A DNA stretch of 64,000 bases from Eledone cirrhosa (lineage: Eukaryota). This document shows positions 2,489-33,893 of this stretch, piece by piece; positions within the stretch are counted from its first letter, which is position 1; the number at the start of each line of letters is the position of its first letter. Under the pieces are notes generated by a model. That model worked only from the letters and a program-made list of their open reading frames with translations. It had not been told where the DNA came from and did no database searches. The position numbers were made by a program, and so were the translations under genes. The DNA lies in assembly GCA_964016885.1 (NCBI GenBank), contig OZ024740.1:146196001-146260000 (forward strand), read 5' to 3'.

Positions 2489-2675
2489 TGTATGAAAGAG
2501 TCGTTACCCCGACGGCTGAGCTCTTGCCATTTCAACAACTAGTACTGTCTGGAACTAGCTGTTGAAACGGCAAGAGCTCAGCCATTTGGGTCTCGACTCT
2601 TTCATATAACCATACTCTACTACCCCAAGTATCGAGTACTCTGGTGAGTAATGGTCTAAACAGGTTTTTAATGCA
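2489..2675 (+). mobile_element. Short Penelope-like terminal fragment with 5' inversion (~53-bp stem hairpin) between TA tracts
   Basis: Arms at 2491-2543 and 2554-2606 with a 10-nt loop. The right arm contains GAAACGGC, and a unique tail runs into (TA)n. Confidence 0.55.
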
Positions 2676-2749
2676 TATATATATATATATAGCGTGGAAG
2701 ATGGACATTAAACGATGATGATGATATATATATACTCACACACACACAC

Positions 2750-2859
2750 CAGTATTCTGATGATTTGATCAGGCAAAGACTGTAATTAAGGTCGAGTGAC
2801 ATAACTTCTAATGGTCAGCGGCTTTTAGACTCACCTGATTAAAGAAACAATTAATACTG
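2750..2859 (+). ncRNA. Type I hammerhead ribozyme-like motif with long stem II insertion (degenerate stem III)
   Basis: Stem I CAGTATT/AATACTG, core CTGATGA (2757-2763), stem II TTTGATCAGG/CCTGATTAAA, GAAAC (2844-2848). Followed by AATAAA and a TA tract. Confidence 0.65.
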
Positions 2860-3111
2860 TAAATAAACCCTTTTGTACAGCCGACCATGTTATTCTTCAT
2901 TCTTTTAATTTATATATATGTATATATATATTTACTGGATTAGAATCATTTCATTTGTATGAAATCAATTTCATACAGATGCAACAGTTCTAGTCCTGTA
3001 GAAGTCATTTCTATCTAAAATAAATATGCTTCTTCTCTATGAATATATTGAGTACCTTATTTAACTCTGGTTTTTTTCTGATCCCCTTTGGAAAACCATC
3101 CTTAATTTTAT

Positions 3112-3560
3112 TTATAGCTGTACTTTGAATTCCTTGCTAAACTCACTTCCTACTCTTACTTTACTAACAGTTCCTCTGTACATGGCTTGCACTGCTCTCT
3201 CCTCTGTACATGGCTTGCACTGCTCTCTCCTCTGTACATGGCTTGCACTGCTCTCTCCTCTGTACATGGCTTGCACTGCTCTCTCCTCTGTACATGGCTT
3301 GCACTGCTCTCTCCTCTGTACATGGCTTGCACTGCTCTCTCCTCTGTACATGGCTTGCACTGCTCTCTCCTCTGTACATGGCTTGCACTGCTCTCTCCTC
3401 TGTACATGGCTTGCACTGCTCTCTCCTCTGTACATGGCTTGCACTGCTCTACACCTAGTTTCCTTAATACCACCAGATGACAGGATGTGGTTCTCTGGCA
3501 AAGAATGCTGCTTTCCATGCATAGAGTACTATCCTGATTTGTGGTCTCCCTGGTCTTGGC
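3112..3560 (-). mobile_element. RTE LINE RT fragment carrying an internal 28-bp tandem amplification
   Basis: VQAMYRGTVSKVRVGSEFSKEFKVQL matches the RT of the RTE ORF at 62080-63141. Confidence 0.8.
3173..3450. repeat. 28-bp tandem repeat, ~10 identical copies (CCTCTGTACATGGCTTGCACTGCTCTCT)
   Basis: Read directly. The ORF translations repeat every 28 aa, which equals 3 units. Confidence 0.95.
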
Positions 3561-3568
3561 ATTGCAAG

Positions 3569-3613
3569 CTCTCTCTCTCTTTCTCTCTTTCTCTCTTTCT
3601 CTCTTTTTCTCTT

Positions 3614-3658
<45 letters not shown>

Positions 3659-3731
3659 GTCTCTCTCTGTCTCTCTCTGTCTCTCTCTTTTTCTCTCTCT
3701 CTCTCTCTTTTTCTCTCTCTCTCTCTCTCTC
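3569..3731. repeat. (CT)n-rich microsatellite
   Basis: Read directly. Confidence 0.95.
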
Positions 3732-3797
3732 AACATGTTGCTCACAAAATGTAGTGCTAAAGTGGAGTTATAACACTATTAGAGTATTTTACAATGA

Positions 3798-3998
3798 TTA
3801 ATCTTTTAGCATTTACATTACTCTATATTTATTATTGTATTTTCACAGAAAAGGCTTTACTTCACATAATTCTCACATAATATTGAATCTGAGATTTTCA
3901 TATTTGTTTGAGAACAATACCTTAACATAAGTATGAGTGGCCAGAAAGAGGTGAGAGAATTCTGGCCAGATATGGCCGATTTAAATGCTAAAGGGTTA
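3798..3998 (-). mobile_element. piggyBac-type TTAA MITE
   Basis: Ends ttaatcttttagcattta ... taaatgctaaagggttaa. Reverse-orientation homolog of 52784-53011. Confidence 0.75.
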
Positions 3999-4197
3999 AG
4001 ACTTAAGATTGAGAAACCATGAACAGCTTTGTTTACACAGACCTATGTCATGAAGTCACCAGCTTGGTTTTACTATTTAGATATTCTAAACATCAATCTA
4101 TTTTGATATCATGTACACGATGACCTGTCATAATTGCTTTGGATAGAGGGAGTCAATCAGCCATGTAACATCAGTTTGCTTATCCAATCTATTCCTG

Positions 4198-4421
4198 TTG
4201 TAACCATTTTGTTGCCATATTTCTAGTGAAATGCACTATTTGAATTAATAAAGAATCTGAAAGGATTTACTAAAATTATTTCATTAAGATAGTATTTTTA
4301 GCATAACAAAAGCTTGTCACAAAACCTTGTCACTAGATTTTATTTAAATAACCTAAAATGGATGGTTTTTGTTTCACAGAACCAGATATGGTTTTGGGTG
4401 GATTAGGATCAGAAGGGTTAA
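4198..4421. mobile_element. Second TTAA MITE family, decayed (related copies ~1700-1900, 5046-5315, 15925-16165, 50697-50950)
   Basis: Ends taaccattttgtt ... atcagaagggttaa, with a shared internal AT-rich sequence. Boundaries approximate. Confidence 0.55.
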
Positions 4422-5630
4422 AGACTGTAGTGGTAGCTGGAGCAGATTTGGTCAAAGGACACTTCAGTTATTGCAAAACATTCCTATATCTTTAGCACTC
4501 AACATATGTACAGTTTGCAGTTAATCTGGCTATTGATACTTCAGCTATTTTGGTCTGTCTGTAGTATGTGTTATTGTACATGTTTGTGCATGCTAGTCGA
4601 ATGGCAGTTAAAGCTTATGTAGCTTATGATAATGGAGGTTATTAGTCAGCTCTGGTCAAAACAAACTTGTGATCAGACATTCCAGCTATGACTATTTCAT
4701 CTTGTACTTTCAGACAATCTGTATCTAGGATGACATTATCCAATGAGTATTTTCCATTAAGATTGTAGGTAGTGATCTGAGATTTAGCTGTTACTTTTAG
4801 CAAGTTGATCAACCTCATTCAGGTTCTCTTGTTTGAGTGTGTGTGTTTAGGATTTATGGAAGAAAGTGAAACAGGACTAGCCTAACTTCATGAATATAGA
4901 TAAGGCGTTAGAGTTGTGTATTACATGCTTTTATACCTCCTGAAATATTCACTAAAAAGAAACTTATGGTTGAAAGTTTTGTAATCTAGATAGGTATTTA
5001 TATAATTTTGTTTTTAATTGAAAGGAAGGTGTAGTGCACTGAAGGTTAATTCTTTTGTTACTATATTTTTAATGGATACTGCCTAAAATTTTCAAATAAT
5101 TTTGAAAATAACCAAGAATTTGAAGGAATTTAATATAACTTTCTCATTAAGTTTGGAACATAAATGGCCTTACAGAAAATTTATGATGGCCATTTTTTTT
5201 ATTTATTTTTTTTTTTATTTTTTTTTTTTATATTATAGATGAATATAGTTTAAAATAAGCAGTTTTGTATCATTGAACTAAAGGTGGCTCCAAAAATTTG
5301 GTATCAAAGGGGTTAAACAGATGGCTCCCTTTGCTTGAGACTGGTCACCAGAAGGTTTGTACCTGAAAAGTTCCTCTGCAAGGTGCAAACTTGGACAATG
5401 TTTTGTGGACAATGTGTTTTGTGGAAGACCTGTTATCCATGCATTTCAGCCAACCTTGTCAAAGGCTAATACAGCTTGACACCAGTGTCATCATAACTCA
5501 TTTTTCCAGCTGAGGGAACAGGAGCAAGTGAAATAAGGCTTTTCTTAAGGACACAGTGCGCCACTCAATCTGAGGAAACACTCAGAACCTTTCAATTTTG
5601 AATCCAACAAGTGCCACATGCTACAAAGAC

Positions 5631-5684
5631 AAATGTCTGATGACCCTGTGATAAACAAACGGGTGAAACTCCAGAGTAACAAGA
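5631..5684 (+). ncRNA. Type I hammerhead ribozyme-like motif
   Basis: TGT-CTGATGA-CCC...GGGT-GAAACTC-CA-GAGTA-ACA. Stem III is ACTC/GAGT and the GUA triplet is at 5676-5678. Stem I is only 3 bp and the stem II base is imperfect. Confidence 0.65.
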
Positions 5685-5826
5685 TTCACTATTTAGTTTT
5701 AAATAAATGAGCGCACATACACCACACGCACACATGCACTAATTATTAAGACCAACATCCGAAAAGGGCTTGATAAGGATTATATATATGTATAAACCTG
5801 TAGAGCAAATATTTATTATTAGTAGT

Positions 5827-5832
<6 letters not shown>

Positions 5833-5874
<42 letters not shown>
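5833..5874. repeat. (TA)n microsatellite
   Basis: Read directly. Confidence 0.95.
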
Positions 5875-5877
<3 letters not shown>

Positions 5878-6439
5878 CTCACAGTAAAGAGACAAACACA
5901 GATATAAGTGTGTTCAAATCACAAGGGACGCAAACCACCAGGGTGAAGAAAATACTGACTAAAGTACGGTTCACAAAACTCGATTAAAAGGATAAATTAA
6001 GATTTACAAACTGATAACTATCAACATCCAGACAGCTTTAGGTAGAACTGTTTCACAAGTCAGTGAAGAGTTAAAGGTCCAATGGATGTTCAGACCAGTA
6101 ATCACTCCACTACTAAATTTCTTAGACTAAATAATGCAAATGTGTTAAGAGAGCACATGGTTATCGCGAGTCGAATAGGACGTAAGCAACTGAAAAATAG
6201 CAGCTAGAACCATTCGTAATGTAAATGAAATGAAGTGATTAATTATTGAAATAAAATGGGATGATTTACTGAAACCTACCTTTTTCTTTTCAATGCTCAC
6301 TCTGTTTGTATGTGTTTAAGTTTTTCTGTGTTTGTATATGCATGCATGCATTTATAACATTAACAGTAGTTTCATTTATTTTCATTTGATAATTTTGAAA
6401 TCATATTTTTGTGATCATAAAGTTTATTAATGAACAAAG

Positions 6440-6920
6440 TAAATTTAGATTGAAAAGGTTCAAGTATCTAGGGCTGTTATGAGTGATAGCAGGTAGGGTA
6501 CTGAATTAAGTGAAAGATTTGCAGGAGCTGGTGAAGCAATTTCAGCATTCAGTCATCAGGAGGTAGGTGTAAAAGCCAAACTCGCTACCTTAAATTTGCT
6601 ATTCATGCCAATGGTTGTGAACTTTGGGTAATGACCAAAATAATTCGATTGCAAATACAAATGGCCAAAATGGGGTTTCCTCCATAGATTCTTTGGAGTA
6701 ACATTATTTGATAGTGCAGAGTTTGGAAATCAGTTGTTCCAGGTAGAGCCGCTATTTCTCTGAATTGACATTCAGTCAGAATGTCTAAGGAAAGAATTGC
6801 TAGACAGTTTTTACAGGCAAAAACAACCAGCAGAAGACACCCCCCCCCCCCCCCCCCCCCCAAGCAAGATAGTAGAATAACATCCACGAGCTCGACTGGT
6901 CTCACTTGAGGATCCAGCTG
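6440..6920 (+). mobile_element. Highly decayed RTE-type LINE 3' RT fragment
   Basis: Remnant FKYLG and GCELWVMTK motifs. Boundaries approximate. Confidence 0.5.
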
Positions 6921-8899
6921 GGTCAATTGGAGACAGCAGCTTCTGACAGGACCCTCCCAGGAATAGGTTGGCAAAGAATTAACACACAAGCTGCTAAACA
7001 CTAGTGAAATGTTAAGATAGTTGGTCTTTGAGACTAAAACTGGAATCAAATAATTTTTTTATTGCTATTTTGAAGGACATTATCTTTTATTTAAACATAC
7101 AGAAACAAACATGTTTTATTAAAAAAATCAAAATGCTTTTGTTTAGAAACAATGGCATCATATACAGCCACTTGGTAGACTTAAATACTATATTATCATT
7201 TTTTAATGCAGAGAGTTTAAGTGTTAGGCTCAATTAGAAGCTGCTATCATTCTAAAACTGACACTGATAGTAAGATATGTCTTTAGAAAAGTTACTCATA
7301 ATTCAAAAATTCTAATATATATAAATATAAAATATTAAATATCAAATTTTGGTCAGACAGAACAAAAAAGAAATAAAATGTGAGCAGAAAATCAATTTTG
7401 CCTCTTCAAGTGGTTCAGTTGAATTTCTTCTTCTTCACAAGATCAAAGTTGCAGATGACGAATAGCCAATTTATTTTTATTTCATAGATCACCTGACAAG
7501 TAGACTTAATAAACAGAAAAAACCAGCAAGTCACTGTGAAATCGATAGCTATTCTTTATGTGACCTTTCCAATTTGATCCTGTGAAAAGAATCCAATGAG
7601 GTCACAATTAGGTGAAGAAGCAATGGATTGAAAAAACAAAATTTTGTTATATTTTCTAACATGGCATGTTTCTTTCTTTTTTTTTTTTTTTAATTCTGTC
7701 TGGCCGAAATTTGATAGTATGAAATGGTAAAGAACAAAATAATTCAGCTAACAGAAAATGTAATGCAGTTTTTAATCACTCTAAACTGTTTTGTAAAGTA
7801 CAGTAAAAATTTTTATTATCATACTAATAGTCATCTGACCTTTTGTTTTAATTCTTATATCTTTATGGAAGGGCCATGCATATTTAATATATTTTTCATT
7901 AAAAACATCTCAAAATGTCACTGTTCAGTATTGTCAGACTTGTATTTATCTAAAACTCACAGGAGATGAAGACAAAGGTCAAAGAGACAAAATAGCTGTA
8001 AATTACGCATAGTTATTCTATTTCTTGCCATTCATTGTTAGTGCTTTTATAAAAGTTCAAAATGTGAATTTAATTTGTTCTTCAAAAAATGATCTGTGTT
8101 GTCCTAAAACATTATCAGAGGTCACAAATAGTTTAACAAATCTAGTTTAATGAAAAGTAAAGTTCTGTATTTCTATTTGAGTTGTTTAGTAGCTGTTGAT
8201 GTGTATTTATAGAAGCTTCGTGCGTGTGCGTGTGTGTGTGTGGGGGGGGGGGGGGGGTAAATCTCTTCCGAAGCAAGCAATTATCTGTAGAATAAGCTTC
8301 TTTGCAGTATTAGTATACCATGTGGTATATATTCTGGCTACTTGCATTCTGAGTCCAAATCTTGAGGTCAACTTTGCCTTTCATCCTTCCAGAGTTGTCA
8401 TGTTTTGACACAGCTGAAGAATCCTCCAAATTGTTTGTTTGGCAGGTTTTCTGTGGCTGGATATTCTTACCAACCACTTTACAGTGTGTATATTGCGTGC
8501 ATTTATCATATAGCTCACCAATACTAGAGAGGTTGTTTGTACCCTTAACACAACTGAAGAGTCCTCTTGAACCTTATTTGGCATCTGTTCAGAATATGTC
8601 CCTCTATAATATATTTGCCTTCGACTAAACACAGAAAATCAATCCGTACATCTTCCATTTGCCTCATTCTAATTGAACAGCAGGACTGTGGGCTCTTGTT
8701 AAACAAGATTTCTTTAGTTCAGTACAGTTCATTCACTATTGTGTTCTATAGTGCTTAGATTTTTCATAAGCCACACAACAGTAAGTGTGGCACCCAATCC
8801 ACAATTGGGGTCATGGACATTGCACCATGAAGATGAGTGACATTAATTTACATTCCATCTTGGTAAGGCAGGGACTTGTGACATTGTAGCGTATGTGTG

Positions 8900-10340
8900 T
8901 AAAATCATTATCACTATTTTATCCACTTTTCCTTGCTTGGGACTGGTTCTTTCCAGCACAGCATCTCTCCAATCATTGTGGCCCTTTGCCATCTCCTCTA
9001 TGAAATTCAGTGATATGAGATCAGCACTGACAACCTCTGCCTAGATTTTCTTGATCTGCCTCTACCACCAATCCCTTCCCCTGGGATTTCTTGGCACTTC
9101 ACTCAACCATCATCATCATCCATACTTATCACATGGCCATATCAGTGCAGTCTTCTCTCCTGCACACATCTAATTCTTTTTATATCCAGCCTCTCTCTGC
9201 TCATCTATACTTTGCCTTTCATGTGTATTAATATTGCACATCTATTGAAGCATGCTTGCTTCATCTCTTTCTAGCCTTCACATATCTTCCAAGTTCACTG
9301 TCCATGTCTCACTAACCATACATCACACTCTGTACACAAGCATCATACAGATGGCTTTTCTTTCATTGAGAGAAACTTAGCTATTATACTCTTGGTGCAG
9401 CCTCCTCCCTCACCTAGGTAACAGAAGCTATCAACTACTTCCTGGAATTGGAAAATGTGTATTTTACTTGTTCTTACTACTAACTATCCCTGTGCATCTG
9501 CCGCATATAAAGTTTATCCTTTCTGTCAGCCTGTCTAGTATACTAGTAGGCTTCGTGTGTACATCATTTAGTGTTACCACCTACTCCTTTTCCACGTATA
9601 GAGCAAGGCCACTTTCCAGGGTCTTGTCTTCTTTCCTGCTTATCAGAACTTTAGTTTTTCCAAAGTTTACTCTAAGCCCTTTTGATTCTAAGTTCTGTTT
9701 CCAAAGCCAGAGTTTTTTCTCTAGCTCTTTCACAGATTTGATTATTTGAGCCAGGTCATTGGCATACAGGAATTTCCATGGGTAACCTATCTTACTCATG
9801 TTATTGCCTGCAGAACTATAGGCAGGAGTGAACTGAGGATGGTGCTCCAATGTTTTTTTTTTTTGCAATGAACTTAGTGTTTAAAATCATCTGTCTATCT
9901 CATTACTTTAAACAAGTAAAAAGTCACTCTGGTTTGTGGGTTTGCCTGATTAATAGGTGATCAGGTGGCAGACCAGTTTCTCGAAATTAGTGTCTCAAAA
10001 TAGTCAGTTCACTTGTATTACATAATTCTAGGAGCCTCACTCCCCCGCCATTTTTTTTTTAGCCATAATCATATCCACCATGTACTTCAGTGTATCCATC
10101 CCAGTGCTGTCCAACATATCTGCTGAAGTTGCCAGCTTAGATGATGTCTCTCTCATCTGTAACAGAAGTTGACTGTAAAAGTTCCTTATTTAGTCCTGCT
10201 TGTAGTGCTTATCTAAAGATAATTGTTATCTGAGTTTCATAATTCTGTCACTTACTCTAACTACTCAGATTACCTTATCTATCCACTTCAAAGCTAGTAG
10301 AATGCCTGCCCACCTATTCTGTCATCATTACACACACACA
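8900..10340 (-). mobile_element. Decayed RTE LINE fragments
   Basis: Minus-strand GYPWKFLYANDLA...WKQNLESKGLRVNFGKTKVL matches the RTE RT elsewhere in the window, and EN remnants lie further right. Confidence 0.75.
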
Positions 10341-10859
10341 CACCTGCCTAAATAGTGGTAAAACAAAGGTGACTCAATGTTTGTTTCAGAATATGTATTT
10401 TTTGGATTTGTTTCATTACATATTCACATTACAACTGAGTTCCATTTCATGGAACCTCTCTTTCTCTCTTTCTCTTTCTCTTTCTCTCAACCACTTAATT
10501 CTAGATTTATTGTGTGGCAGCTTGAACAGCTGTTTTATTTTCCTGTAGCTTTGGGTTGACTAATACTTTGAGTAAAATTTGCTAGGAAACTGTGATGTAG
10601 TCTAGGAAGTATAAAATACTTTGGTCTCATGCCAAACATGTCTTTAAATCTTTATCTGCTACTTCCACCAGCTTCTTGATAGTCTGTCGCTCATCTCTTT
10701 CTTGCCTATTCTCTGTACCAGAGATGGCATTGGATCTGTCTTACCTTCTCATCTCTGATGTTCATTCACCCATTCTTCTTCCTACTTACTGCACTATGAC
10801 ACCCACATAATATGGGGATGTCTTCAGACCCCCCCCCCCCCAACCGATATATCCTCCCA

Positions 10860-15786: not shown

Positions 15787-17071
15787 CACATTTTTATTGT
15801 TGCTTTTTTTTCTTTTTTTTAAATGGTTACATTTTAATATTTTAATCTTTATTGAAATTACTTGTTTGAATTGTGAATATGAAAGTATACTATAAAACAT
15901 AAATTTGTGTAGGAATATAAAATCTTTTACCCCCTTCGTTTCTATATTTCTAATGAAACACTATTTGAAGGAATGAATAAAGTATCTGGAGTGTTTTACC
16001 TAAATTATTTCGGTATTACGATGATATTTAAAATAATTTAACAAAAGGTTCCTATATCAAATTATGATGGTGATTTTAATTTAAATAGGAATTTTTTTTA
16101 AATTGGTTGTTTTTCTTTTATACAACAAGAAACAGATATTTGGTGGGGTGTACTAAAAGGATTAATATAGTTGTTTAGCCTTGGTCAGCTTTGATCAGAC
16201 AGGTCTCTAATCAAAGGCAGCCTAGATCAGTGGACTCAAACAAGCCATTACATTTTCACCAGTTAAAATGCTTATCTGCAATACAACTAATAGGCTACTA
16301 TTTATTTATTTTTCATCAATATTAATACGCTTATGATAGTAAGTGGGATATGTGAATTAGTACAAAATGTAGGGGACAATTTTTCTGTTTCAAATTTTCC
16401 TTATTCACAAATTGTTCTTCTGCAGGCCACATGTTTGAAACTCTTGGACAAGACCATCCTATCTTTTTATACATCCAAGACTACGTTCATTGTCTTTAAT
16501 TATTTTAGACTGTAAGGTGGGATTTGAAGGAGATTTGGCTACTATTCATAGCAGGGGTGGCAGATAAATTTCATACAAAGTATTACAAAACTTCTTAAGT
16601 AGATTTTGTTACTTAGTTGATAATTTAATGATAATCACCCTGTAAAGTGGTAGTGCCAGTGTCACTATAAAATACATCTAGTATACTTGGTAAAGTAGTT
16701 GGTGATAGGAAGGACATCCGTCATAGAAAACTTGTCAAAGGATCCAAATACTCAGACATGACTACCACTCTAGTATTGGTGCTGTAATAAAATGCATCCA
16801 GTACACACTATAAATTGGTTGATGTTAAGAGTAAAATGGGAAATCCAACCCGTTTAGGAGGATAGTAACTCTGAAGTACTGACATGGTCCACAATGACTT
16901 GTCCAACCCATGCCAACATAGCAAACAGATGTAAAATTGTGGGGTTTGATTCCTCGTAGCACCTGATGGAAACTTCTTTTCCTACCTTTAAGGGTCTTCA
17001 CCCTATTTTATAAGCCACTTTATAGCATCTCCACGCATGAACGCATCACACTTTATACTAATATATATATA

Positions 17072-18587
17072 CTAGCAGAGGTACCCGGCGTTGCTCGGAT
17101 ATTGAATAGCAGTTGTGTATACCATTTATGTCAATACTTCAGTGCTGCTTCGAAAACTATACTTTTACAAAATCGGCTTTTTCCAAAAGGGCATTCCTGC
17201 CCCCAGGGGTCTCCTACCCAATATGTGCCAATTCTGAGAGTTCACATTCATCTGTAGGACAAACGTAGCCCATGTGTCAAGTTTGTGAAAATCGGTTGCG
17301 GACTCCAGAAGTTATGACGTTTTGTTGCATTGCACTGCAGTGCAGTGCTTCAGTCGAATCCAAGTAAGTGGTTAAAATGGTCATCTGTCGGGAGGCCCTA
17401 TAATCAATATCTGGAAAAATAACAGTGCCCATGACCATCCGGAGTACATAAGTAACCGATGTCTTAAGTTTGGTGAAAATACTGTAGAAATGCATAAGGT
17501 TTACACACACACGCGCGCGTTTGTGTGTGTGTCCCCGTCGGGGCATACGTATGTACTGGCCTAAATCTTCACTATTTACTTTTACTATTTTAATAGCCTC
17601 TGTCATTTTCGTTTTCAATTTTATTTACATCATCCGGAGCTGGAAATCATTCTTTTATTTTAAATAGAATATTAGTATAACGACTCCATTTATACCATAA
17701 ACTTGGTCTTGTCTTTGCATGAAATTGTTCTTCACGCTCCACATAACGACGTATTATCCTCGCTTTTTTTCCCGTTCATTGCCAGGGAACGTCTTCACGA
17801 ACCAAAATATCGTCTTCCTATTTTCGTTCAGTTTCTTGAAATATTTACTTCTGCGTTCAGATTACTCTCAGTTCAATTTGAATGGGAAATTCCTGTTTCA
17901 TCGATTTTTCTCCGTAACCATGGAAGCTTGTAGCTTGGAAGTCGACCCAACGCCTCCTCGGATCATTCTGCATAACTGTGTAAATTTTCGCTGCAATCCA
18001 CCAAGCTGTTTTAACGTTTATCCGACTACACCTACATATACAACGTCCGACCACTTCCAATTTATATAGTAGATTTGTTTATATATGAATGACAAAAAGA
18101 AAAGTACAAAACTATACATGAATTGTTTCTACTAAACATTCAATTTAAGACACAACCTACATATTTGATAGGACTCCAGCTCACATCTTTTTCTTCTTTT
18201 GTTCCCCCTGGAGCATTGGGCTGCGAGCCACCCCTACACAACGCCATGTTCTGAGTCTGCTTTCATCTCCACCGAGATGCACGGTGCGTCATGGTGTATC
18301 TAACCATTGTTTTAGGTCTTACTACGGGATTTTACTGCTTTATTTGTATGAAATTGTAAATAAGACAAAAGTATTAGAACAGGGGGAAATAACTCGCCGA
18401 ACGCGATAGTTTTGGGGCCCCAGGGACCACATTTTTTAAGTTAGAAATCTGAAACGTCGTCTATTTGCTTCCTTGGCACTTTTTACATAGGTGTGTAAAT
18501 TTTCACGTCAGTCCAACTACGTCTGCTACCATTTAAGCGTGCACATCTGAATTTCAACCACCACCCATTTCACAAATATATATTAGA
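17072..18587 (-). mobile_element. Non-autonomous Helitron
   Basis: On the minus strand: 5' TC (TCTAATATATA) at 18587 and a 3' GC-rich hairpin (CCGAGCAACGCCGGG) followed by CTAG at 17075-17072. Inserted between A and T with no TSD. Internal AAGTTTGTGAAAATCGG-type motifs. Confidence 0.75.
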
Positions 18588-18934: not shown

Positions 18935-19140
18935 GGTTTCTCATTTAGGCACAAGGCCAACAGTTTTGGGGTAAAGGAAAAGTCGATTAAATCAACCCCA
19001 GTGCGTTACTGGTACTTTATTTTATTGACCCCAGTAAGGATGAAAGGCAAAGTTAATCTCGGTGAGATTTTAACTCAGAATGTAAAGGGCCGTAACTCTG
19101 TTCTGTTAAGCAAGGTGTCCGACGCTCTACTGATTCTGCC
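18935..19140 (-). mobile_element. Nin/Deu-like SINE
   Basis: Homologous to 57628-57799 in reverse orientation. Confidence 0.75.
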
Positions 19141-19217: not shown

Positions 19218-19292
19218 TTCTTGGTATTCCTGGTCTTAATATTCCTGCTTGAAGTTGCTGGTGTAGCTTATTGCTGTGTCAAAAGAGAGGAG
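19218..19292 (+). CDS. Tetraspanin coding exon (TM3): FLVFLVLIFLLEVAGVAYCCVKREE
   Basis: cttgcag acceptor and gtaagg donor. 75 nt, phase 0. Contains the conserved TM3 Glu. Confidence 0.92.
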
Positions 19293-23513: not shown

Positions 23514-23817
23514 TATATCAAATAATGTTTATGAATAAACATTTGAAAGCCTTTAGCTATGAATTGTAAATGTGATGACTGATGTCATCTACCTTGTTCC
23601 AGCAGAAACAGGGGGAAGCAACCAACAGCACTGTTTCTGGCTATTTGGCCATTTTCAAGGTCACACACCCCTTCCTTGCCTTCTTCTGGAACTCAAATAA
23701 GCGTACTTCCCTTTGCTTCTGCTGGAACAAGGTAGATTACATCTGTTATCACTTTTAAAATTCATAGCTAAAGGCTTTTAAATGTTTATTCGTAAACATA
23801 TATATTATTCGATATAT
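23514..23817 (-). mobile_element. Penelope-like inverted-repeat element (~100-bp arms) enclosing a hammerhead
   Basis: Arms at ~23514-23618 and 23706-23817, flanked by TG/TA tracts. Confidence 0.7.
23618..23664 (-). ncRNA. Type I hammerhead ribozyme, U3-A8 core variant
   Basis: Minus strand: GUGACC-UUGAAAA-UGGC(CAAAUA)GCCA-GAA-ACAG(UG)CUGU-U-GGUUGC. All three stems close and the cleavage triplet is GUU. Confidence 0.8.
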
Positions 23818-24554
23818 ATATTTATGGGGGAGGGTGTCTGTGTATAGGTGTGGGCATGTGTGAATCTAGGTCTGCATCAGCATGGTTAAAAATTCAGTGA
23901 TTAGGTCTCAAGAAAAATGCCAAGCAGCAGAAATACAAAGTTTATAATACCTAACGCAGGAAGAAATGTTTTGTTTCAGGCATTGGTGCTTTGAGAAGCA
24001 AGCAAGAAAGTTTTGTAGTAGTACAATGTAAAATGAGTGCTGTAACAGAGGCATTGTGTTTTGTGTGGTTTTTGGTCTGTGTATGTGTAGTTGTTGTATG
24101 TATGCACCGCCATGCTTAAAATGCCCAACAAACACTGTCAATACAGCGCCTGTACGCTCTATCAGGAGTTACGGGCCCATACATACATACATACATACAT
24201 ATCATCCTACCACATTCTCTTCAGCACACAATGCTACGGCACTTTCAACTTCTCCATTCTGATCCTGCCATTTTCTTATTCCCCTCATATTCCTCTCTTC
24301 CTTAGGTCATGCAGATTGCAGACACAATCTCCCTACCACCACCTCCACATATGCAAACTGGATCATTTAACTGTTCCTGCTGTGCTACCTGTCTATTCCA
24401 GATATTAATGGTTTCCTCTTTGACATGGACAGGTTCACCTGCCCCACAAGTATCCTCATCTATTGCATTATATGCCAATTATCTGCTCAGCTGTATGTAG
24501 ACTAGACAGGCTGAAAATTAACCAATAGATTTGGCAAACTCCTTTGGGTTGTCT

Positions 24555-24730
24555 TAAAGTTTCTAATTTAGGCACAAGGCCAACAATTCCTGGGGAGAAA
24601 TCGATTACATCAACCCTAGTACTGGACTGGTACTTTATTTTATCGACCCCAGTTTTGAACTTGGAATGTAAAGGGTCATAAATGCTGCAAATCATGTTGT
24701 CTGACGTTCTTATGGTTCTGCTAATTCACT
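24555..24730 (-). mobile_element. Nin/Deu-like SINE
   Basis: Contains GGCACAAGGCC...TGGTACTTTATTTTATCGACCCC. Confidence 0.7.
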
Positions 24731-25149: not shown

Positions 25150-25356
25150 ACTCACACACACTCATACACACACACTCACTCACGCTCTCTCTCGCTCTCT
25201 CTCTCTCTCACTCTCACTCTCTCTCACTCACTCTCTCTCACTCACTCTCTCTCACTCACTCTCTCACTCACACTCTCTCACTCACACTCTCTCACTCACT
25301 CTCTCTCACACTCTCTCTCACACTCTCTCTCACACTCTCTCTCACGCTCTCTCTCA

Positions 25357-25392
<36 letters not shown>
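25150..25392. repeat. CA/CT compound microsatellite
   Basis: Read directly. Confidence 0.9.
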
Positions 25393-25399
<7 letters not shown>

Positions 25400-26267
25400 C
25401 AATGCATGCTGCATGCATTCACATTTAATCATGTATACACACACATGTGCATTTCACTACAAATGCATACACTTTAATACATATACATATATAACCATGT
25501 AACAGTGTACACGCATGCGTACATATACACACGCACACAATCTGCCACTGCTATAGTTGACTTGTTCACCCATTGTATTTCTTTTATAATCAGTCTCTTA
25601 TCTGTACAACCTCTTTTCCACTTCTCTACTACTTTCACTCTGGCATTCATTTCACATTATGCCACCATAATAACATGTGTAATTTCATTCCATAGGTTTT
25701 TTTTTTTTCTTTTCTATTATTTTCTTTCTGCTTTTCCTTGAAGAATGACTACCATACTAAACATAGAACATTTCTAATTTATTCTCTTTTCTAGAATTAA
25801 ACTAATATTAGCTTTAAACTAATATGCAGAAAAGGAGTAGGTAGAAACTCTACACTGTCCACAATGCAAATCTAGGGTACACAGGAGGTGTAGCAGGATA
25901 GCATGCAAACTAACAGGAAAGGAAGACTTTGCATGTAATAGATATTCAGGGAAAATTGATAGTAACCTTATCAGTGATATAAATCCACGAAGGATCCATA
26001 TAAGTGGTTGATAGCTCCTGCTACCTAGGTGACCAGAAATCCCAGTGGAAGGAAGTTGCAGTAGAGGAAGGCGAAGGAAGACCTGGGCAGAAGTTATGAG
26101 AGCTGATCTCATATTGCTGAAGCTCATGAAGACATGACAAAGGATCACAAGTGGAGAGATGTTGTGCTGAAAAAAGCCTGTCCAACCCATACAAGCATGG
26201 AAAAGCAGGCATAAAATGATTAACTCTGTATTTCCATTGACTTGTACTGAGACCTTCCTTTACATAT

Positions 26268-26306
<39 letters not shown>

Positions 26307-27299
26307 CATTCATTCATTCATTCATTAAGGCCAATCTTGTTACTTTGGAGTTTCTCCTATGCACTCACAGGAGAAATTCTAGAGTAATATTGAGCACTCA
26401 TTTTTGCAATTGTCATTATTGTATATATAATATATTTGCACACAAACCACACGCACACATGCGCCAAGCACATCTTGTTGCTATTTCTTGGACAAAAAAT
26501 TTATTTGAATGCATTCTGAAATTTCTGTCTCTGGCATTTAAAAGATTAGATGAAATAGGATTTTAGTTTAACTGTAATATCTAGATTCAGTATCTTGGCT
26601 GTGTTTGACACTTTTATTGTAAATCTTGTTGCTGCTTGAGAAACTTAAAAATTAGATTTAAAAGCATACATCTCTAATATTCAAATGTTTTATCATTAGA
26701 GTAAGATTATGCCAACAACATTGCCAGTGCTGATTAAACTGTTTTTACAGTACATATCACGTTAAGTAGTATAACAACCAATTATCGTGTAGCAGCAACC
26801 TATTTCTGATGTTGCTCTAAGCATTTTAGTTGAATTCTCATATTTAATCCCTCCCTGCATTAAAAGAAGTGTGAGAATTAGTAGTCACATAAATGTTTAC
26901 ATGATTTCTCAGAAAAGCCTTATTGCAATATGCTGTTTCTTTAACATGAATATTATATTAATGGACCTGCTCGCCCTCCTGCGAAATGTAATGTAAAATG
27001 CAATTTTTTCTTGTCTCTCCAGCCTTTCAGTCCATTCATTCATATACCCGTATCCTCGCCCAGAATCCAATCTTTTGCTCTCTCTCAATGCTATTCTATA
27101 ATTCTGTCTGGTTGTTCTAAATAATCTTCTTGTATTTTAAAATCCCATTATTCGCTTAATACTGTTATATGCTTGTCCAATTATGCCCAAAATTCGAAGA
27201 TTTTATTTAAACCCTCTCGCTAACTACCCCATACCCATCCCACCCGCCCCCCACTCTCCACCATTATTATTAGGACCAATCATAAGTCAGCGGCCTATG

Positions 27300-30200
27300 C
27301 TATCACTTCTGGTTGCTTTTTGATATGATGGATGGACTAAGGAATTCTGGAGAGTCTGAAAAATCTGGACACTCAGTGACAATGCCAAAGATAGACAAAT
27401 TCACCTCATGCTGCCGGACGAAAAGGCAAGGACTCCCCCTCTTTGTTTCGGCCGCGGATGGCCAACATAACCCCATCCCCCTCACCCATTCCCACCCACC
27501 AAACGCAATCCAAAACTTCAGAGTTGGTACCATGAATGTAGGCACCTTAAAAAGTCGCTCTAACGAGGTTGTAGAAATGCTTGGACGTAAGGAGGTTGTT
27601 TGCTGTATCCAAGAGACCAGGTGGAGGGGTGGGTCTGCAAGATTCATTGTGGGTAAAAAACGGTGCTATAAGCTTTTCTGGGTAGGAAATGACAATGGGC
27701 TGGGTGGGGTAGGAATCATGTTAGCAGAAAAATGGGTAGATAAGATAATAGACGTAAATAGAGTGAACGACAGAATAATTAAAATAAGACTTGTCCTAAA
27801 TAGAACTACTGTGACAGTAATATCTGCGTATGCACCCCAATCCGGACTGCCTGGCGCTATAAAAGACAGATTCTATGAGACATTGATGCTCACTACCTCC
27901 CAAATAACCGACAGTGACTACATAATTATTGCTGGCGACCTAAATGGTCACATTGGACAACATGTTGACGGCTATGACGGAATCCATGGAGGCTATGGGT
28001 TTGGTACTAGAAATGAGGAAGGCTCCAGAATCCTGGAATTCTGTGACGCAAATAACCTAACTATCTGTAACACTAACTTCAAAAAATGAGACAATCACTT
28101 GATCACCTATAGATCAGGGGAACACGCCAGTCAGATAGATTATATCCTTACCAGAAGACGTGATAGTGTCTGTTCTAAACACTAAATCCCTCCCCCATAA
28201 CGAATCCACTTGCCAACATAGACTCATAGTCAGCGACCTCATAGTCAGGACAAGACGTACTCAACAACAGAGGAGGACTATCTTCAGGAGAAAAATATGG
28301 AAGCTAAAGGACCCCACAGCCAGTAGTAAATTTTTACTTGATGCTTTCGATTACTTGATGCTTTTGACAGTGCTTTCGACAGTAAGGAAGAGCAATTAGT
28401 CGTACAATATAGAGGAACAGTGGGAATTCCTGAAAGCTAACCTGCTGAAGGCGGCAGATGAAGTCTGTGACTGGAGCAGGCCTATAGGCAGGAGGAGAGT
28501 AACGTGGTAGTGGAACAGTAAGGTGGAGGAGTCAATTAAGGCCAAAACGTAGGCTGGGAAAGTATGGGGGAAGTAGAGAAGACTATCAAGTGGCCAGGAG
28601 GGAAGCTAGGAGACAAGTGTACTTCGCAAGAAGGGAAGCAGAGGAAAGAAAGTTCAAGCATGTTCTACAATGCGAGGACCAAAAACGTGAGGTGTTCAGG
28701 ATTACTAGGCAGTGTGTCAAGGAAAATCGTGATATTGTTGGGGAGAAGTGTGTCCTTAATGATGATGGTGTACTTACCATCACTGACGCTGATAAGGTAG
28801 CTTGGAAGTGTCACTACGAAAGGCTACTAAATGAGGAGAATAAATGGGAGAAAGACAGTCTCCCCCACATCGATCCAATAGAGGGACCAGCAGTGCTAGT
28901 TGAAGGTAGTATAATAAGTAAGGCAATCAAAGATATGAAGACGGGTAAGGCGGCTGGGCCTTCGGAAATAGTTGCTGAAATGCTGAAAGCATCTGGAACG
29001 GTGGGACACACTATGGTCACCCGGATAGTAAACCAAGTCATACAGAATGGGGCCGTTCCGAAGGACTGGCGTAGCAGCATCATCATTAACTGCTACAAGG
29101 GTAAAGGAGTTGCCCTAGATAGGGGTAACTATAGAGGCATTAAATTAATCGACCAAGTCATGAAGGTCACATGTTCATCAGGGCTCCGTTCTTAGCCCCC
29201 TCCTATCTATTTATTATTGCCCTTCAGGCTATAACAGGAGTTCAAGACCGGCTGCCCATGGGAACTCCTATATGCCGATGATCTAACGCTCATAGCTGAA
29301 TCAATGGCTGAACTAGAGAAGAAATTCCAAACATGGAAGCACGGCCTAGAATCAAAAGGCCTTAAAGTTAACTTGTGTAAGACTAAAGTTCTAGTTTGTA
29401 GGAAGGAAAATAGGGCACCGGTCCCATCTGGGAAATGGCCATGCTCAGTGTGTAGGAAAGGAGGAGGCAGAAACTCCATTTTATGTCCCAAATGCAAAGT
29501 ATGGGTGCATAAAAGATGTAGTGGGATCACAGGTAAGCTAACTAAGAATATAGATTTTATATGTGGCCGGTGCTCTGGTGCAATAAGTAGCAGCAAGTGC
29601 CTACAGAATACTAGCTCATTCCATTGCACAGATGGTTCTATAGAAATAGTGGACACCTTCCATTACTTGGGCGACAAAATCAGCAGTGGGGGAGGGTGCT
29701 CTGAAAGTACAGTAGCTAGTCAGAACGGGATGGAAAAAGTTCAGAGAGCTTATACCACTATTAGCTGCTAAAGGGTTCTCTCTAAAAATGAAATGCAGGC
29801 TGTATGATGCCTGCATACGAACAGCAATGTTACATGGCAGTGAGACCTGGGCATTGTGTGCAGAGGATATATGCAGACTGGAGAGGAACGAAGCTTGCAT
29901 GCTCCGTTGGATGTGTAATAGTAATATACGTGAACGGCAAAGCATAAACGAACTAAGGGAAAAATTAGGAATAAGAGGGATCAGATGTTGTTTACTTGAG
30001 AGAAGACTACGTTGGTATGGTCATGTGATGCGAATGAAAGACGACAGCTGTATAAAAAAAAGTGCAGGGCGATATAAAAATAGACGGTAGCCACGGAGTA
30101 GGCAGACCCAGAAAAACCTGGGACGACTTGATAAATTCCGACCTCACACACTTACACCTCTCCAAGACAATGTCACTGGACCGAGATCTTTGGCGCTACA

Positions 30201-30408
30201 CAGTAATACAGAAGACCCGCCTTGCCTAAGTAAAAACCTTGCAGTCCACACTGTAAATGTGGTTGGTGTTAGGAAGGGCATCCAGCCGTAGAAAACCCGC
30301 CAGACAGTCCTATACGAGCAGGACAACCAATCTTGCTGCAAGTGGGAAAACTCCCGTCCAAACTCATGCAAGCGTGGAAGATGGACGTTAAATGATGATG
30401 ATGATGAT
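27300..30408 (+). mobile_element. Near full-length RTE LINE, inactivated (APE endonuclease, RT, PHD-like finger, 3'UTR, (GAT)n tail)
   Basis: EN motifs GTMNVGTL, CIQETRW, SAYAPQ, AGDLNGHIG and RT motif LLYADD. Stops and frameshifts, plus a ~110-codon deletion at ~29171 that removes the first catalytic Asp region. 5' end approximate. Confidence 0.92.
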
Positions 30409-30719
30409 TATTTCATTTAGCTTGTTTTTCCATATTAATTATTATTTGAAACATATTTATCTTCTCGTTATTGGTGTGAAAATATAAGCATTCAAATCTT
30501 TACATATCAAATAGTAAAGTATTTTCACATGTAACAGATTCCTATAGAGAAAATCGGTTATAAAAATAGTGTTATGAAACATTTATTTCTCTGGATATGT
30601 TTGTTTCTTTCCTTGTTTTTCTCACAGATTATGCACTTTTTGTTTCATTTGACAGATATTTAGATGAATCATTCTGAAATTACTTCACACTTAAATATGC
30701 ATTTGTTTAATTTTATTTA

Positions 30720-31092
30720 TCACGACCATGACCTCTGGCGTCGCGCAGTAATACAGAAGACCCTATTCCACCCCCCCACCCCGGTACAAGCTGAAGCATA
30801 TAGACAATATGCCCCCACACCCTCTCACTGCAAAGTGGTCGTGGAGGTGCCACGGCAAAAAAAAAAAAAAACCACCCAGCCCACACTGTAAAGTGGACGT
30901 GTAGGCACCATGGGAAAAAAGCACCCAGCACTCACTGTGAATGAGGTTGGTGTTAGGAAGGGCATCCAGCTGTATAAATCAACCCAGAATCGGTTCCCAT
31001 ATGAGCAAGGCATGGTCAACCGACTGGCTACTGCCCACAATAGGACAACCCATGCTAGCGTGGAAGAACGGACATAAAACGGTGATGATGAT
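30720..31092 (+). mobile_element. 5'-truncated RTE 3' end
   Basis: Close match to the reverse complement of ~61225-61605. Ends in (GAT)n. Confidence 0.85.
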
Positions 31093-32076
31093 TTAAAAAG
31101 TTGCAAAACATTCAGATTTTCCTATTGATAAAACAGGAAAATACTTAAGTGCCTTTAGTTGATTCAACTTGTTTGCAAGCATTCAACCCAGGTCTGTGTG
31201 AGGAGGCGAGTTTTTCTTTTTGCCAGCATGCACATATCGATGAATATATATATATATATCTTAGTTCTACTTTGAAGTCTCTATGTTTATGTAAATATCA
31301 GTTTCTTTGTATATATTGTTATTTAGCAATATATTTCATCCCTAGTGGCCAATTTAGCAATATATGCTATATTTTTTGTGTATTGGCATTCATCTTTTTG
31401 ATGATTTTTCTCTTGTTTTCAAAAATATTGCTTCTAAAGTGAACATTCCCTTGCAGATTTAATGTTATTAGCATATAATAAATACCAATATTGTTTACAG
31501 ATTTAATTTTCTGATAACATTCTGGAATGTCCATAACTGCCAATGTATATATCATTTAGAAAAGAAAAGGATTTAAATTGTTGCATTTCCAGAAATTAAC
31601 TTGAATGTGATCAATTTTGTTTACCCATAGCTTAAAAATGTAATTTTTAGATTTTCTGAGTATATTTTTTTATCCCAAGAAAATGATGTTGCAAAACGTA
31701 CATAGTTAGAATTTAATTATTGAATGCTTTAAATCAGGAAGGTTACATTTAATTATTTAGAAATGCAAATGATAAATGGAATTAACTAAAACATTTTTCT
31801 TTTAAAGGCAATTCCATATTTAATTGAATTTGATATATTAGAAATCTAAGAGATATAACAACTTAACTCATATTTAGATTAAAACATTCCATCACAATTT
31901 TATGTAAGAAATTTTAAAGTTATTTTCCAAATACCACCTTAATAACGATGAAATTATTTTAGTAGATCCTTTAGAATTCTTGAATTATTTTCAAAATTAA
32001 TTGAACTGTATACAGAATGATTTGCTTTTTGTTTAGTCTTTATCTTATTGTCATGACTTTTCATTTACTATTTTAG

Positions 32077-32181
32077 TTTCAAAACACCATATCAGAGGGG
32101 AACTTATTCAGGGGCTTTATCCAAAGGGAATATGGCACTGATGAAGGAAAGACCCATATCATTGACTTTATGCAGTGGAAA
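32077..32181 (+). CDS. Tetraspanin coding exon (EC2 helices A/B): FQNTISEGNLFRGFIQREYGTDEGKTHIIDFMQWK
   Basis: ttttag acceptor and gtaaat donor. 105 nt, phase 0. Its DxxQ motif leads into LQCCG. Absent from the ORF track. Confidence 0.88.
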
Positions 32182-33483
32182 GTAAATATTACACCTTTCT
32201 TTGTTGTTTCTTTTTTCGGTGTTTTTTTTTTTGTCAAAATATATATGGTTTTGTTTTAACCCAGTTTTTATTAAATTATAGAACAAATAAAATAGAGGCA
32301 CAGGTGTCTTAAGTGTTTCTTACTGTAACACTGGGTGAACCAGTGCCTTGTAATTAGAATTTAATAGATGAAAACTATGCAGAAACTCATTCTATATGTA
32401 TACCAGTGTTGTTTATTTATTTTGTCCTGTTACTTGGCAGACTGACAAACAGACATCAATAAAATAACTACAATAAGTAGTGGGATCAATATGATGGTCT
32501 AAACCTTTGAAGGGAGTTTCCCAGCATAGCCACAGTTCTTTAAATGAAACCAGTAAAAGAATAGATGTTATGCAATGAAATATTCTTCTATTGTCTGCCA
32601 TTATAATTGTCATATTAGCATAAATAATGGAAGAATATTATTGATTTTTGTTCATTGATATTTCAGAAATACTGCTTGAATAAAGTGTTTTCAACCAAAG
32701 CAGTGTGTGTATTTTTGTTTTGTTTTTTTCAACTGGGGTAATGCAATAACTTTGGGTGCAAACTGTGTAATGGTACTGTATATAACTAGATTAAACTTGG
32801 AAAATAACATTAATTAATAGTACCGAAGATATGATATGTGGAGGTGGAGTGATATCATTGAAAAAATATTGAATCAAATACAGAATATAAAGTTGTAGCA
32901 TATTCACATTTCCACTAAAAAAAAATGAGGTCAGCATCACCTTTCATTTGCAGAAGGTACTTAGCATTGCCTGGGCGAACTAATTGCACCACTGATTATT
33001 GAATATTTTAATCTCCTACGTTAAGAGATTGTCCTCTCTTCAAATCTGAGTTTCTCTATAACTATGGAAAAATCTAATGTCTAAGTGTTTGGATGAAAAA
33101 TATATAATCATCATTTTACAACCATTTTTCCATGCCAATAAGGTTTGGGCAGATTATTACTAAATCGGGACTTGATCTCAGCCACTGTCCTCTTAGATAA
33201 GTTGAAGGTCCACATGTCGCTCAGTATGTTCCATATTTGGCATGGTTTCTATGGCTGGATATTCTTCGAAATGACATCACTTTACAGAGTAGACTAGGTG
33301 CATTTTGTAACACCAACACTGTCATGTTCTTGAACTGACTGAAGAGTCCTCTCTTATGTTAGCATTCAAATTTCAACCACTTTACAGTGTGTACCAAGTG
33401 CATTTTATAATGGCACTAATACTAGAAGTCAACTTGTTCCAAGACAAGCATGTTTCAGAGTAATTACAAATTCTATTCTGATA

Positions 33484-33893
33484 AGTATGTTTTAAAACAG
33501 TGAGCGAGTTTGAAATTAGAAATATAAGCTTTCACTGTATTTTTGACTAGAGAAATTTTTAGCCTGATAGTGGGGTTTAGAACCCTCAATCGGGCTAAAA
33601 ATTTCTTTAGTCAAAAATACGGTGAAAGCTTATATTTCTAATTTCAAACTCGCTCAGTTTCAAAACATACTTACTTGTCATTTACTTGGTAAGAATGTAG
33701 CTTCTAATTTGAATGGAAGGAGATGGGTGATGTGTTGGTGTAATGGTAGCACAGTGGTCTGGATAACCAAAGATGTGGGTTTGACTCCCATATACGTCAA
33801 TACTCATCTTTTTCCATTTCTCTGAGGGTTCTAAACCCCACTATCAGGCTAAAAATTTTAGTAAAAAATACGGTGAAAGCTTATATTTCTAAT
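33484..33893 (+). mobile_element. tRNA-containing element with Penelope-like inverted plus direct terminal repeats and 13-bp TSD
   Basis: Inverted arms at 33483-33568 and 33589-33672, direct partial repeat at 33823-33896. TSD TTCTATTCTGATA at 33471-33483 and 33894-33906. Confidence 0.75.
33729..33799 (+). pseudogene. tRNA-like cloverleaf (anticodon position GGA) inside a mobile element
   Basis: Acceptor GATGTGT/ATACGTC, D stem GTGT/GCAC, anticodon stem TGGT/ACCA, T stem GTGGG/CCCAT. The T-loop TTTGACT and T37 are non-canonical. Confidence 0.7.

What the first reader, a model, noticed from the sequence alone, without database searches (positions are those of the whole stretch)
2489..33893. 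A set of tiny structured-RNA retroelements (hammerhead- or tRNA-bearing, Penelope-like) scattered through the tetraspanin introns
Seen: at least seven short non-coding inserts (2489, 2750, 5631, 5875, 16939, 23514, 33484) with little shared primary sequence. Each shows some of the same grammar: a structured RNA module (hammerhead core or tRNA fold), a short tail, often a 5' inversion, and in most cases an adjacent (TA)n/(CA)n/(TG)n tract. Established: Penelope-like elements (PLEs) carry minimal type I hammerheads in their pseudo-LTRs, form partial-tandem and inverted ends, and are the proposed mobilisers of non-LTR retrozymes. Inference: this genome hosts several distinct non-autonomous ribozyme/tRNA mini-element families that may target microsatellites. 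No PLE ORF is present in the window.
Basis: partly seen in the sequence, partly recalled or inferred. Interest (0 to 1): 0.75.

Follow-up and report, generated by a model that had tools for sequence, protein, structure and literature searches.

The report
Penelope ends, retrozymes and tRNA passengers
The seven short inserts are real repeats left by Penelope-type jumping genes: one is the cut-off end of a protein-coding element and two more likely are, two are tandem repeats with a predicted self-cutting RNA, and two carry a tRNA-like piece but no ribozyme and likely hitch-hike on the same enzymes.

Summary
All seven inserts are multi-copy repeats (598-4,439 search candidates each) with Penelope-like (PLE) layout: back-to-back arms, two fixed 3' ends, (TA)n flanks. 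They are not one class of mini-element. 2750 is the 5'-truncated end of a coding Hydra-type PLE: 25 of 30 loci of its GIY-YIG ORF carry it downstream. 2489 has close relatives joined to a Hydra-type ORF at 3 loci; 5631 has a longer upstream form but no ORF was reached. 5875 and 23514 are about 500-nt and 335-nt tandem hammerhead units (non-LTR retrozymes; U3-A8 core variant). 33484 and 16939 carry a tRNA-like module and no hammerhead; 33484 is a 256-nt tandem unit, two-armed at 14 of 24 loci, with no ORF attached. Only 3 window copies keep a hammerhead core, and hammerhead density here (3 per 64 kb) equals a random genome sample (2.7), so the tetraspanin introns are not special. Mostly known biology; the ribozyme-free tRNA passengers were not found in five literature searches, but this scan already noted the 33484-type family on other DNA of this genome. 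No RNA data were available.

The parts
2488..2676 (+). Family A: two-armed 3' end of a PLE (inverted arm 2488-2543, direct arm 2549-2676), truncated inside HHR stem II so the core is missing; followed by (TA)n 2675-2691
   Evidence: relatives with a full U3-A8 HHR, joined to a Hydra-type ORF at L258, L311, L340
2744..2907 (+). Family B: 5'-truncated 3' end of a coding Hydra-type PLE; type I HHR, core 2757-2763, GAAA 2844-2847, 3-nt deletion in stem III in this copy; (CA)n before, (TA)n 2911-2931 after
   Evidence: fold z=-2.75
5634..5710 (+). Family C: short PLE-type end starting at HHR stem I; core 5637-5643, GUA triplet 5676-5678, mismatch at the first pair of stem II; likely end of a longer element
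5829..5875 (.). (TA)24 array at the 3' end of the family D copy
5876..6215 (-). Family D: part of a ~500-nt head-to-tail HHR unit (non-LTR retrozyme); this copy has lost the core by deletion
16940..17063 (+). Family E: 3' part of a tRNA-bearing, HHR-less element; starts in the T-arm/B box, ends in (TA)n
23514..23825 (-). Family F: two-armed copy of a ~335-nt tandem HHR unit; direct arm 23702 down to about 23514, inverted arm 23706-23825; complete minimal U3-A8 HHR with core at 23658-23652
33484..33893 (+). Family G: two-armed copy of a 256-nt tandem unit without HHR; inverted arm 33484-33588 carries the ~35-nt tail, direct arm 33573-33893 does not
33729..33799 (+). tRNA-like module of family G (GGA in the anticodon position, short variable arm), set on a long leader-trailer helix and followed by a T5 run at 33809-33813
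   Evidence: z=-2.46
33471..33483 (+). Left copy of a 13-bp direct repeat flanking the G insertion (right copy 33894-33906), likely target-site duplication
   Evidence: sequence
506..706 (+). Host tetraspanin exon (further exons 19218-19292, 35109-35285, 35776-35859)

Best explanation
The seven inserts are pieces of high-copy repeats with Penelope-like insertion layout, likely all pasted in by Penelope-like (PLE) reverse transcriptase-endonucleases, and they fall into three kinds: cut-off 3' ends of coding Hydra-type PLEs (2750 shown; 2489 and 5631 likely), tandem hammerhead retrozymes (5875, 23514), and tRNA-bearing tandem passengers with no hammerhead (33484; 16939 likely). Mechanism (inferred from the layout and from published PLE biochemistry): the GIY-YIG endonuclease cuts both strands in AT-rich or (TA)n DNA; reverse transcription starts at two fixed internal sites of the RNA, one on each side of the break, giving two back-to-back arms whose outer ends differ by a fixed tail; both arms stop early, often at the hammerhead hairpins, so only 80-400 nt land. 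Retrozyme and tRNA units supply RNA with such start sites but no protein. In G and E the tRNA module most likely serves as an internal RNA polymerase III promoter; the template must have been multimeric, circular or jumped end to end, because arms run through more than one unit. Most genomic copies, including most in this window, are decayed.
For: Shown: B end lies 448-1124 nt behind the GIY-YIG match, same strand, in 25 of 30 ORF loci (24 of 29 without the query locus); CxCX5C linker in 20 of 30, RT core upstream in 8 of 30 within the 1.5-kb flank; 3 of 30 B-selected loci reach the ORF. A-type HHR lies ~1.2 kb behind a Hydra-type ORF at 3 loci, 2 of them from the random sample. D repeats head-to-tail in 9 of 22 loci (7 with period 471-521), F in 3 of 18 (325-345). 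Core covariation in D: C3-G8 in 12, U3-A8 in 6 of 20 copies; B stem II pair 7: C-G 26, U-A 5 of 43. G, chosen by a motif in genome order: 14 of 24 loci two-armed, in at least 13 of the 14 one arm ends at each of two sites ~35-44 nt apart; 30 of 35 aligned arm ends abut TA; no arm continues into an ORF. PLE ORFs are abundant (58,965, 26,947 and 49,965 candidates; 18 of 80 random 10-kb pieces). Published: partial tandems, inverted 5' copy, 30-40-bp tail, (TA)n bias, Hydra clade in octopus (PMC8557442); two-strand cutting and two internal RT starts (PMC11167929); U3-A8 core (PMC4209133).
Against: No autonomous partner was identified for D, E, F or G; ORFs near D and G copies were separate insertions. 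The window's own A subfamily (80% identical over 105 nt to the ORF-linked one) was never seen attached to an ORF in 22 loci. C reached no ORF in the 3 long copies examined (a 4th, L375, was dropped because the anchor did not match). E runs on into a next unit in only 2 of 20 loci, and only 7 of 29 E ends abut TA. Within-family stem variation is mostly one-sided; C has a mismatch at stem II pair 1 in 45 of 47 copies; 3 of 5 window segments folded show no folding signal. G arm 5' ends do not pile up at the tRNA start, and a T5 run follows the tRNA in E and G, which should stop polymerase III early. No compensatory change was visible in 15 aligned G tRNA copies. Clade assignment rests on motifs, not a tree.
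Confidence: 0.82

Rival explanations
1. All seven are short non-autonomous ribozyme/tRNA mini-elements in their own right.
For: 27 of 30 motif-chosen C copies begin within about 15 nt of the HHR core; most A and B copies are under 350 nt, so short truncated copies could themselves act as source elements.
Against: B is collinear with a RT/GIY-YIG ORF in 25 of 30 ORF loci; A-type ends follow an ORF at 3 loci; C has a shared upstream extension of 400 nt or more in 2 loci; inversion junctions differ from copy to copy.
Confidence: 0.06
2. In G and E the tRNA module replaces the hammerhead as a cutting site: host tRNA-processing nucleases cut a multimeric transcript to unit length, it circularises, and the PLE enzyme rolls round the circle.
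For: No HHR under canonical, U3-A8 or one-mismatch descriptors nor any Rfam ribozyme; arms of 430-649 nt pass two tRNA modules and two T5 runs seamlessly; G keeps a whole cloverleaf on a long helix, and one long E copy folds into a similar enclosing helix.
Against: E's acceptor stem is degenerate while its promoter boxes persist; no covariation in G tRNA copies; read-through transcripts of genomic tandems, or strand transfer between duplicated tRNA ends, give the same layout.
Confidence: 0.15
3. G and E are ordinary LINE-driven tRNA SINEs, or MITE-like DNA transposons whose inverted ends mimic PLE arms.
For: tRNA with A and B boxes; palindromic outline; the window G copy has a 13-bp flanking duplication and no microsatellite.
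Against: The tRNA is internal to a circularly permuted 256-nt unit, not at a fixed 5' end; arms vary from about 60 to 649 nt with variable inner junctions; the two outer ends differ by a fixed tail; 10 of 24 loci are one-armed.
Confidence: 0.06

Closest known systems
Hydra-clade Penelope-like elements (Craig et al. 2021, PMC8557442; sections 6 and 11, passages, supplement searches and supplement part 52 of 59 read)
   Same: C-terminal GIY-YIG endonuclease with CxCX5C linker, canonical HHR near the 3' end, (TA)n insertion, truncation, inverted copy and tail; the end of family C resembles by eye the published Hydra-2_Amil end (HHR and tail hairpin).
   Different: The HHR of the published octopus family Hydra-1_Obim differs in sequence from A, B and C, so these are other families; tails here are 60-130 nt rather than 30-40; long pyrimidine-rich 3' UTRs of 0.5-1.2 kb.
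Metazoan non-LTR retrozymes (Cervera and de la Pena 2020, PMC7229834, passages; Li, Clavereau and Pollet 2026, 10.64898/2026.07.22.740005, parts 1-3 of 5, supplements closed)
   Same: D and F: non-coding head-to-tail units of about 335-500 nt with one type I HHR, dispersed, proposed PLE passengers.
   Different: Mostly 1-1.5 units per site with two-armed PLE ends; F and part of D use the U3-A8 core; circular RNA and cleavage not tested. G and E share the layout but lack the defining HHR.
TRIMp3: Cassandra, Helenus, Ajax (Kojima 2024, PMC10886601, passages)
   Same: Non-autonomous retroelements with a tRNA- or 5S-derived polymerase III promoter inside their terminal repeat; noncanonical tRNA identity.
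   Different: They are LTR-element passengers with 5-bp duplications; the word Penelope does not occur in that paper. G and E would be the PLE counterpart.
Non-autonomous Chlamys PLEs such as MRC1 (PMC8557442, passage)
   Same: HHR-less, non-coding, head-to-tail PLE passengers.
   Different: Algal; resemble autonomous partners at the 3' end; no tRNA module mentioned in the passage read.
Schistosome Sm-alpha/Sj-alpha SINE-like elements with HHR (PMC2770079, passages; their tRNA origin is recalled)
   Same: Short, high-copy, SINE-like repeat tied to HHR biology.
   Different: They carry the HHR; here tRNA and HHR are in separate families.

Membership tests
Hydra-clade PLE (family B; A relatives) | RT followed by C-terminal GIY-YIG endonuclease upstream of the HHR end | tested here: met
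   B: 25 of 30 EN loci carry the end, RT core upstream in 8 of 30; A relatives: L258, L311, L340
Hydra-clade PLE (family B; A relatives) | CxCX5C linker before the EN | tested here: met
   20 of 30 B-linked loci; present in L258
Hydra-clade PLE (family B; A relatives) | Canonical HHR near the 3' end and (TA)n insertion bias | tested here: met
   (B 45 of 67 ends, A 20 of 48 ends abut TA; background 8.7%)
Hydra-clade PLE (family B; A relatives) | RT phylogeny; N-terminal RWK and DKT motifs; absence of CCHH | not tested
   no reference RTs in the script box; N-terminus of the B-linked ORF not fetched
Hydra-clade PLE (family C and the window's A subfamily) | Physical link to an ORF | tested here: inconclusive
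   C: upstream extension in 3 of 30 plus L036, no ORF reached; A: 0 of 22 closest loci
Non-LTR retrozyme (D, F) | Head-to-tail non-coding units of a few hundred nt | tested here: met
   D 9 of 22 loci, F 3 of 18
Non-LTR retrozyme (D, F) | One type I HHR per unit | tested here: met
   window D copy has lost the core, window F copy keeps it
Non-LTR retrozyme (D, F) | Self-cleavage and circular unit-length RNA | not testable with these tools
   needs RNA or an assay
Non-LTR retrozyme (G, E) | Type I HHR in the unit | tested here: not met
   none in relaxed scans of G (well covered) or E (middle of unit covered by 1-2 copies only); none in Rfam
PLE-type insertion layout (G) | Partial tandem, inverted second arm, 30-40-nt tail on one end, (TA)n | tested here: met
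tRNA SINE (G, E) | tRNA head at a fixed 5' end and LINE-like 3' tail | tested here: not met
   tRNA is internal to a permuted unit, 5' ends scattered; LINE-tail homology not searched genome-wide
TRIMp3 (Cassandra/Helenus) | Two LTRs, PBS/PPT, 5-bp duplication | tested here: not met
   no internal region between direct repeats; two-armed ends; 13-bp duplication in the window copy
MITE / TIR DNA transposon | Constant terminal inverted repeats with identical outer ends | tested here: not met
   arm lengths and junctions vary, outer ends staggered, many one-armed copies

The most novel reading that the evidence does not exclude
Families G and E are a ribozyme-free class of Penelope passengers in which a tRNA-like module takes over from the hammerhead: it supplies a polymerase III promoter and perhaps the cut that makes unit-length or circular RNA, making them the PLE counterpart of SINEs and of Cassandra/Helenus, arisen at least twice in this genome on a shared 3' scaffold.
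Probability: 0.4. Interest if true: 0.65.

Novelty: new variant of a known kind. Interest (0 to 1): 0.4.

Why it matters
Most of the finding is a reminder that 'tiny ribozyme elements' in invertebrate introns are often just the truncated ends of abundant Penelope-like elements, which matters for repeat annotation. The part worth pursuing is G (and E): a young (up to 98% like its family majority), 256-nt, protein-free and ribozyme-free RNA with two sharply mapped reverse-transcription start sites would be a minimal substrate for finding what a PLE enzyme recognises, and a test of whether the hammerhead is dispensable for PLE-driven spread, a question left open in PMC8557442 and PMC11167929.

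Tried and rejected
Rfam scans of the window and of 12 loci gave no ribozyme hit, also missing the evident HHRs, so they are weak negatives. The HHR-like motif on the minus strand of 33484 lacks the 3-8 pair, A9 and stem I and was rejected. Pfam scan of 94 locus ORFs (of 350 listed) found only one GIY-YIG and missed both PLE queries; tblastn was used instead. ORFs next to D copies (L260, L261) and G copies (L391, L397) are separate insertions. Enrichment of small deletions at the predicted cut site, a lead from note e1-10343661: B 10 of 51 (p=0.002), F 3 of 11 (p=0.04), C 4 of 16, D 1 of 24, A 2 of 56; duplicates and shared descent inflate the counts, so inconclusive. Pile-up of G 5' ends at the tRNA start: not seen. 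Four short family motifs were absent from the PMC8557442 supplement (line breaks can hide matches). RNA: no RNA holder listed; read laying not used. Copy-number extrapolation from 800 kb rests on 0-2 hits for six families and 13 for A, so only orders of magnitude. Literature searches that returned no description of a tRNA-bearing, HHR-less PLE passenger in the listings seen: (open-access library only; Repbase and Dfam not searchable). A sequence look-up of G in the scan's notes returned nothing, a word look-up did. Host identity was not established; cephalopod papers were searched on a recalled resemblance.
Full report
Setting. The window is G000:C1:146196001-146260000 of an unnamed 3.0-Gb animal genome. 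A tetraspanin gene runs on the plus strand (Pfam E=1.2e-7) with exons at 506-706, 19218-19292, 35109-35285 and 35776-35859. I call the inserts A (2489), B (2750), C (5631), D (5875), E (16939), F (23514) and G (33484).

Observation. Each insert has hundreds to thousands of genomic candidates. A structural scan allowing the C3-G8 and U3-A8 cores finds 3 hammerheads in the window (B, C, F) against 0.15 in shuffles, but 2.7 per 64 kb in 80 evenly spaced 10-kb pieces, so the locus is typical of the genome. Rfam sees only the tRNA in G. 3' ends abut TA repeats far above the 8.7% background: A 20 of 48, B 45 of 67, C 58 of 86, D 22 of 44, E 7 of 29, F 11 of 33, G 44 of 54; copies that ran to the end of the reference were left out, and some ends are TA-like themselves.

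B is the end of a coding element. Of 30 loci picked by the 171-nt insert, 3 continue upstream through a pyrimidine-rich stretch of about 800 nt to a GIY-YIG ORF. In the reverse test, 25 of 30 loci picked by that ORF carry B 448-1124 nt downstream on the same strand; 20 of 30 have a CxCX5C linker and 8 of 30 show the RT core within the flank. These are the published marks of the Hydra clade, which inserts in (TA)n and has a family in octopus (PMC8557442). The B hammerhead has a 7-bp stem I, a 10-bp stem II and a palindromic stem III; the window copy has lost 3 nt of stem III.

A and C. The window's A copy is truncated inside stem II. Seven longer relatives among all loci keep a whole hammerhead, 6 of 7 with the U3-A8 core, and at 3 loci such an end lies about 1.2 kb behind a Hydra-type ORF. 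Those relatives are about 80% identical to the window copy; the window's own subfamily was not seen on an ORF in 22 loci. For C, 27 of 30 motif-chosen copies start within about 15 nt of the core or switch there to an inverted arm; 3 have a longer upstream part, shared over 400 nt or more by two of them, without reaching an ORF. Its end resembles by eye that of published Hydra-2_Amil. C has a mismatch at the first pair of stem II in 45 of 47 copies, so it may cut poorly. A, B and C share a short palindrome in the tail between their two end sites.

D and F are retrozymes. Both read on the minus strand. D repeats head to tail in 9 of 22 loci, 7 with a period of 471-521 nt; F in 3 of 18 with 325-345 nt. 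The D family has a full type I hammerhead with a GUC triplet and a core that swaps between C3-G8 (12 of 20) and U3-A8 (6 of 20), the covariation described in PMC4209133; the changes may stem from one event, and the window copy has deleted the core. F uses U3-A8 in 16 of 17 copies and the window copy is complete, although its lowest-energy fold is not the ribozyme. ORFs beside two D copies were separate insertions. This is the known class of non-LTR retrozymes, proposed to be PLE passengers (PMC7229834; bioRxiv 10.64898/2026.07.22.740005).

G and E carry a tRNA and no hammerhead. G is a 256-nt circularly permuted unit. Of 24 loci taken in genome order by a 20-mer (1770 exact matches; 6 duplicate loci dropped from 30), 14 are two-armed, with one arm ending at each of two sites 35-44 nt apart in at least 13; 30 of 35 aligned ends abut TA; none runs into an ORF. 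Arms reach 430-649 nt and pass two tRNA modules without a seam. The tRNA sits on a long leader-trailer helix and is followed by T5. E has a more decayed tRNA with A and B boxes, the same T5 motif and a similar hairpin behind it, and one of two long copies folds into a similar enclosing helix; its tandem form is seen in only 2 of 20 loci. No hammerhead was found in either.

Mechanism. Purified PLE protein cuts both strands of AT-rich DNA and starts reverse transcription at two internal RNA sites, which explains the one-sided tail, and does not need hammerhead cleavage (PMC11167929). That accounts for the two arms and staggered ends of all seven families (inferred). For G and E I favour a polymerase III promoter role for the tRNA, by analogy with Cassandra and Helenus among LTR passengers (PMC10886601), with a multimeric or end-jumped template; the T5 right after the tRNA and the lack of 5' ends at the tRNA start count against a simple version. 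Host tRNA processing making a circle is the bolder rival. Neither could be tested without RNA, and no partner protein was identified.

Novelty. Truncated PLE ends and retrozymes are known kinds. A tRNA-bearing, hammerhead-free PLE passenger did not appear in five searches of the open library, and a 2026 octopus repeat annotation does not mention hammerheads or retrozymes (PMC13282606, passages); repeat databases and bioRxiv supplements could not be checked. This scan had already noted a ~260-nt family of this description elsewhere in the genome and a similar one in another genome; those notes are unchecked and are not counted as support. Verdict: new variant of a known kind, interest 0.40.

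Noticed in passing
L167-L196 (e.g. L175, L177): A young Hydra-type PLE family (86-95% protein identity among the top 150 hits) whose end carries the same palindromic stem III as family B but runs into (ATT)n rather than (TA)n.
   Followed up: partly
L197-L226: A second abundant PLE family with a minimal hammerhead that has an extra base before stem II and ends in (TA)n/(CA)n; its last bases resemble the first end site of B.
   Followed up: partly
window 725-834, 18996-19140, 57623-57804: Copies of an abundant tRNA-type SINE that inserts into (ATT)n tracts, repeatedly inside the 3' UTR of B- and C-type elements, where it can mimic a SINE-ribozyme fusion.
   Followed up: partly
families A and C, 5' junctions: Truncation and the switch to the inverted arm cluster at hammerhead stems (stem II in A, stem I in C), as if the fresh cDNA folds back on its own complement there.
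   Followed up: partly
window 27286-30226 (+) and 61538-63996 (-): Two decayed RTE-type LINE copies in opposite orientation, 71-82% complementary.
   Followed up: no
window 3172-3450: Ten exact copies of a 28-bp unit taken from RTE reverse-transcriptase sequence.
   Followed up: no
window 17573-17859 and many loci: A further abundant (TA)n-associated repeat with fold-back ends that sits beside or around PLE copies (L260, L391); not classified.
   Followed up: no
L139, L072, L002: Diverged relatives of G, D and F respectively, showing that each family has older subfamilies useful for a covariation test.
   Followed up: no
window 54510-54808 and 61211-61509: Two 95% identical 299-nt SINE-like copies, with partial copies at 30916, 34340 and 58528.
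   Followed up: no
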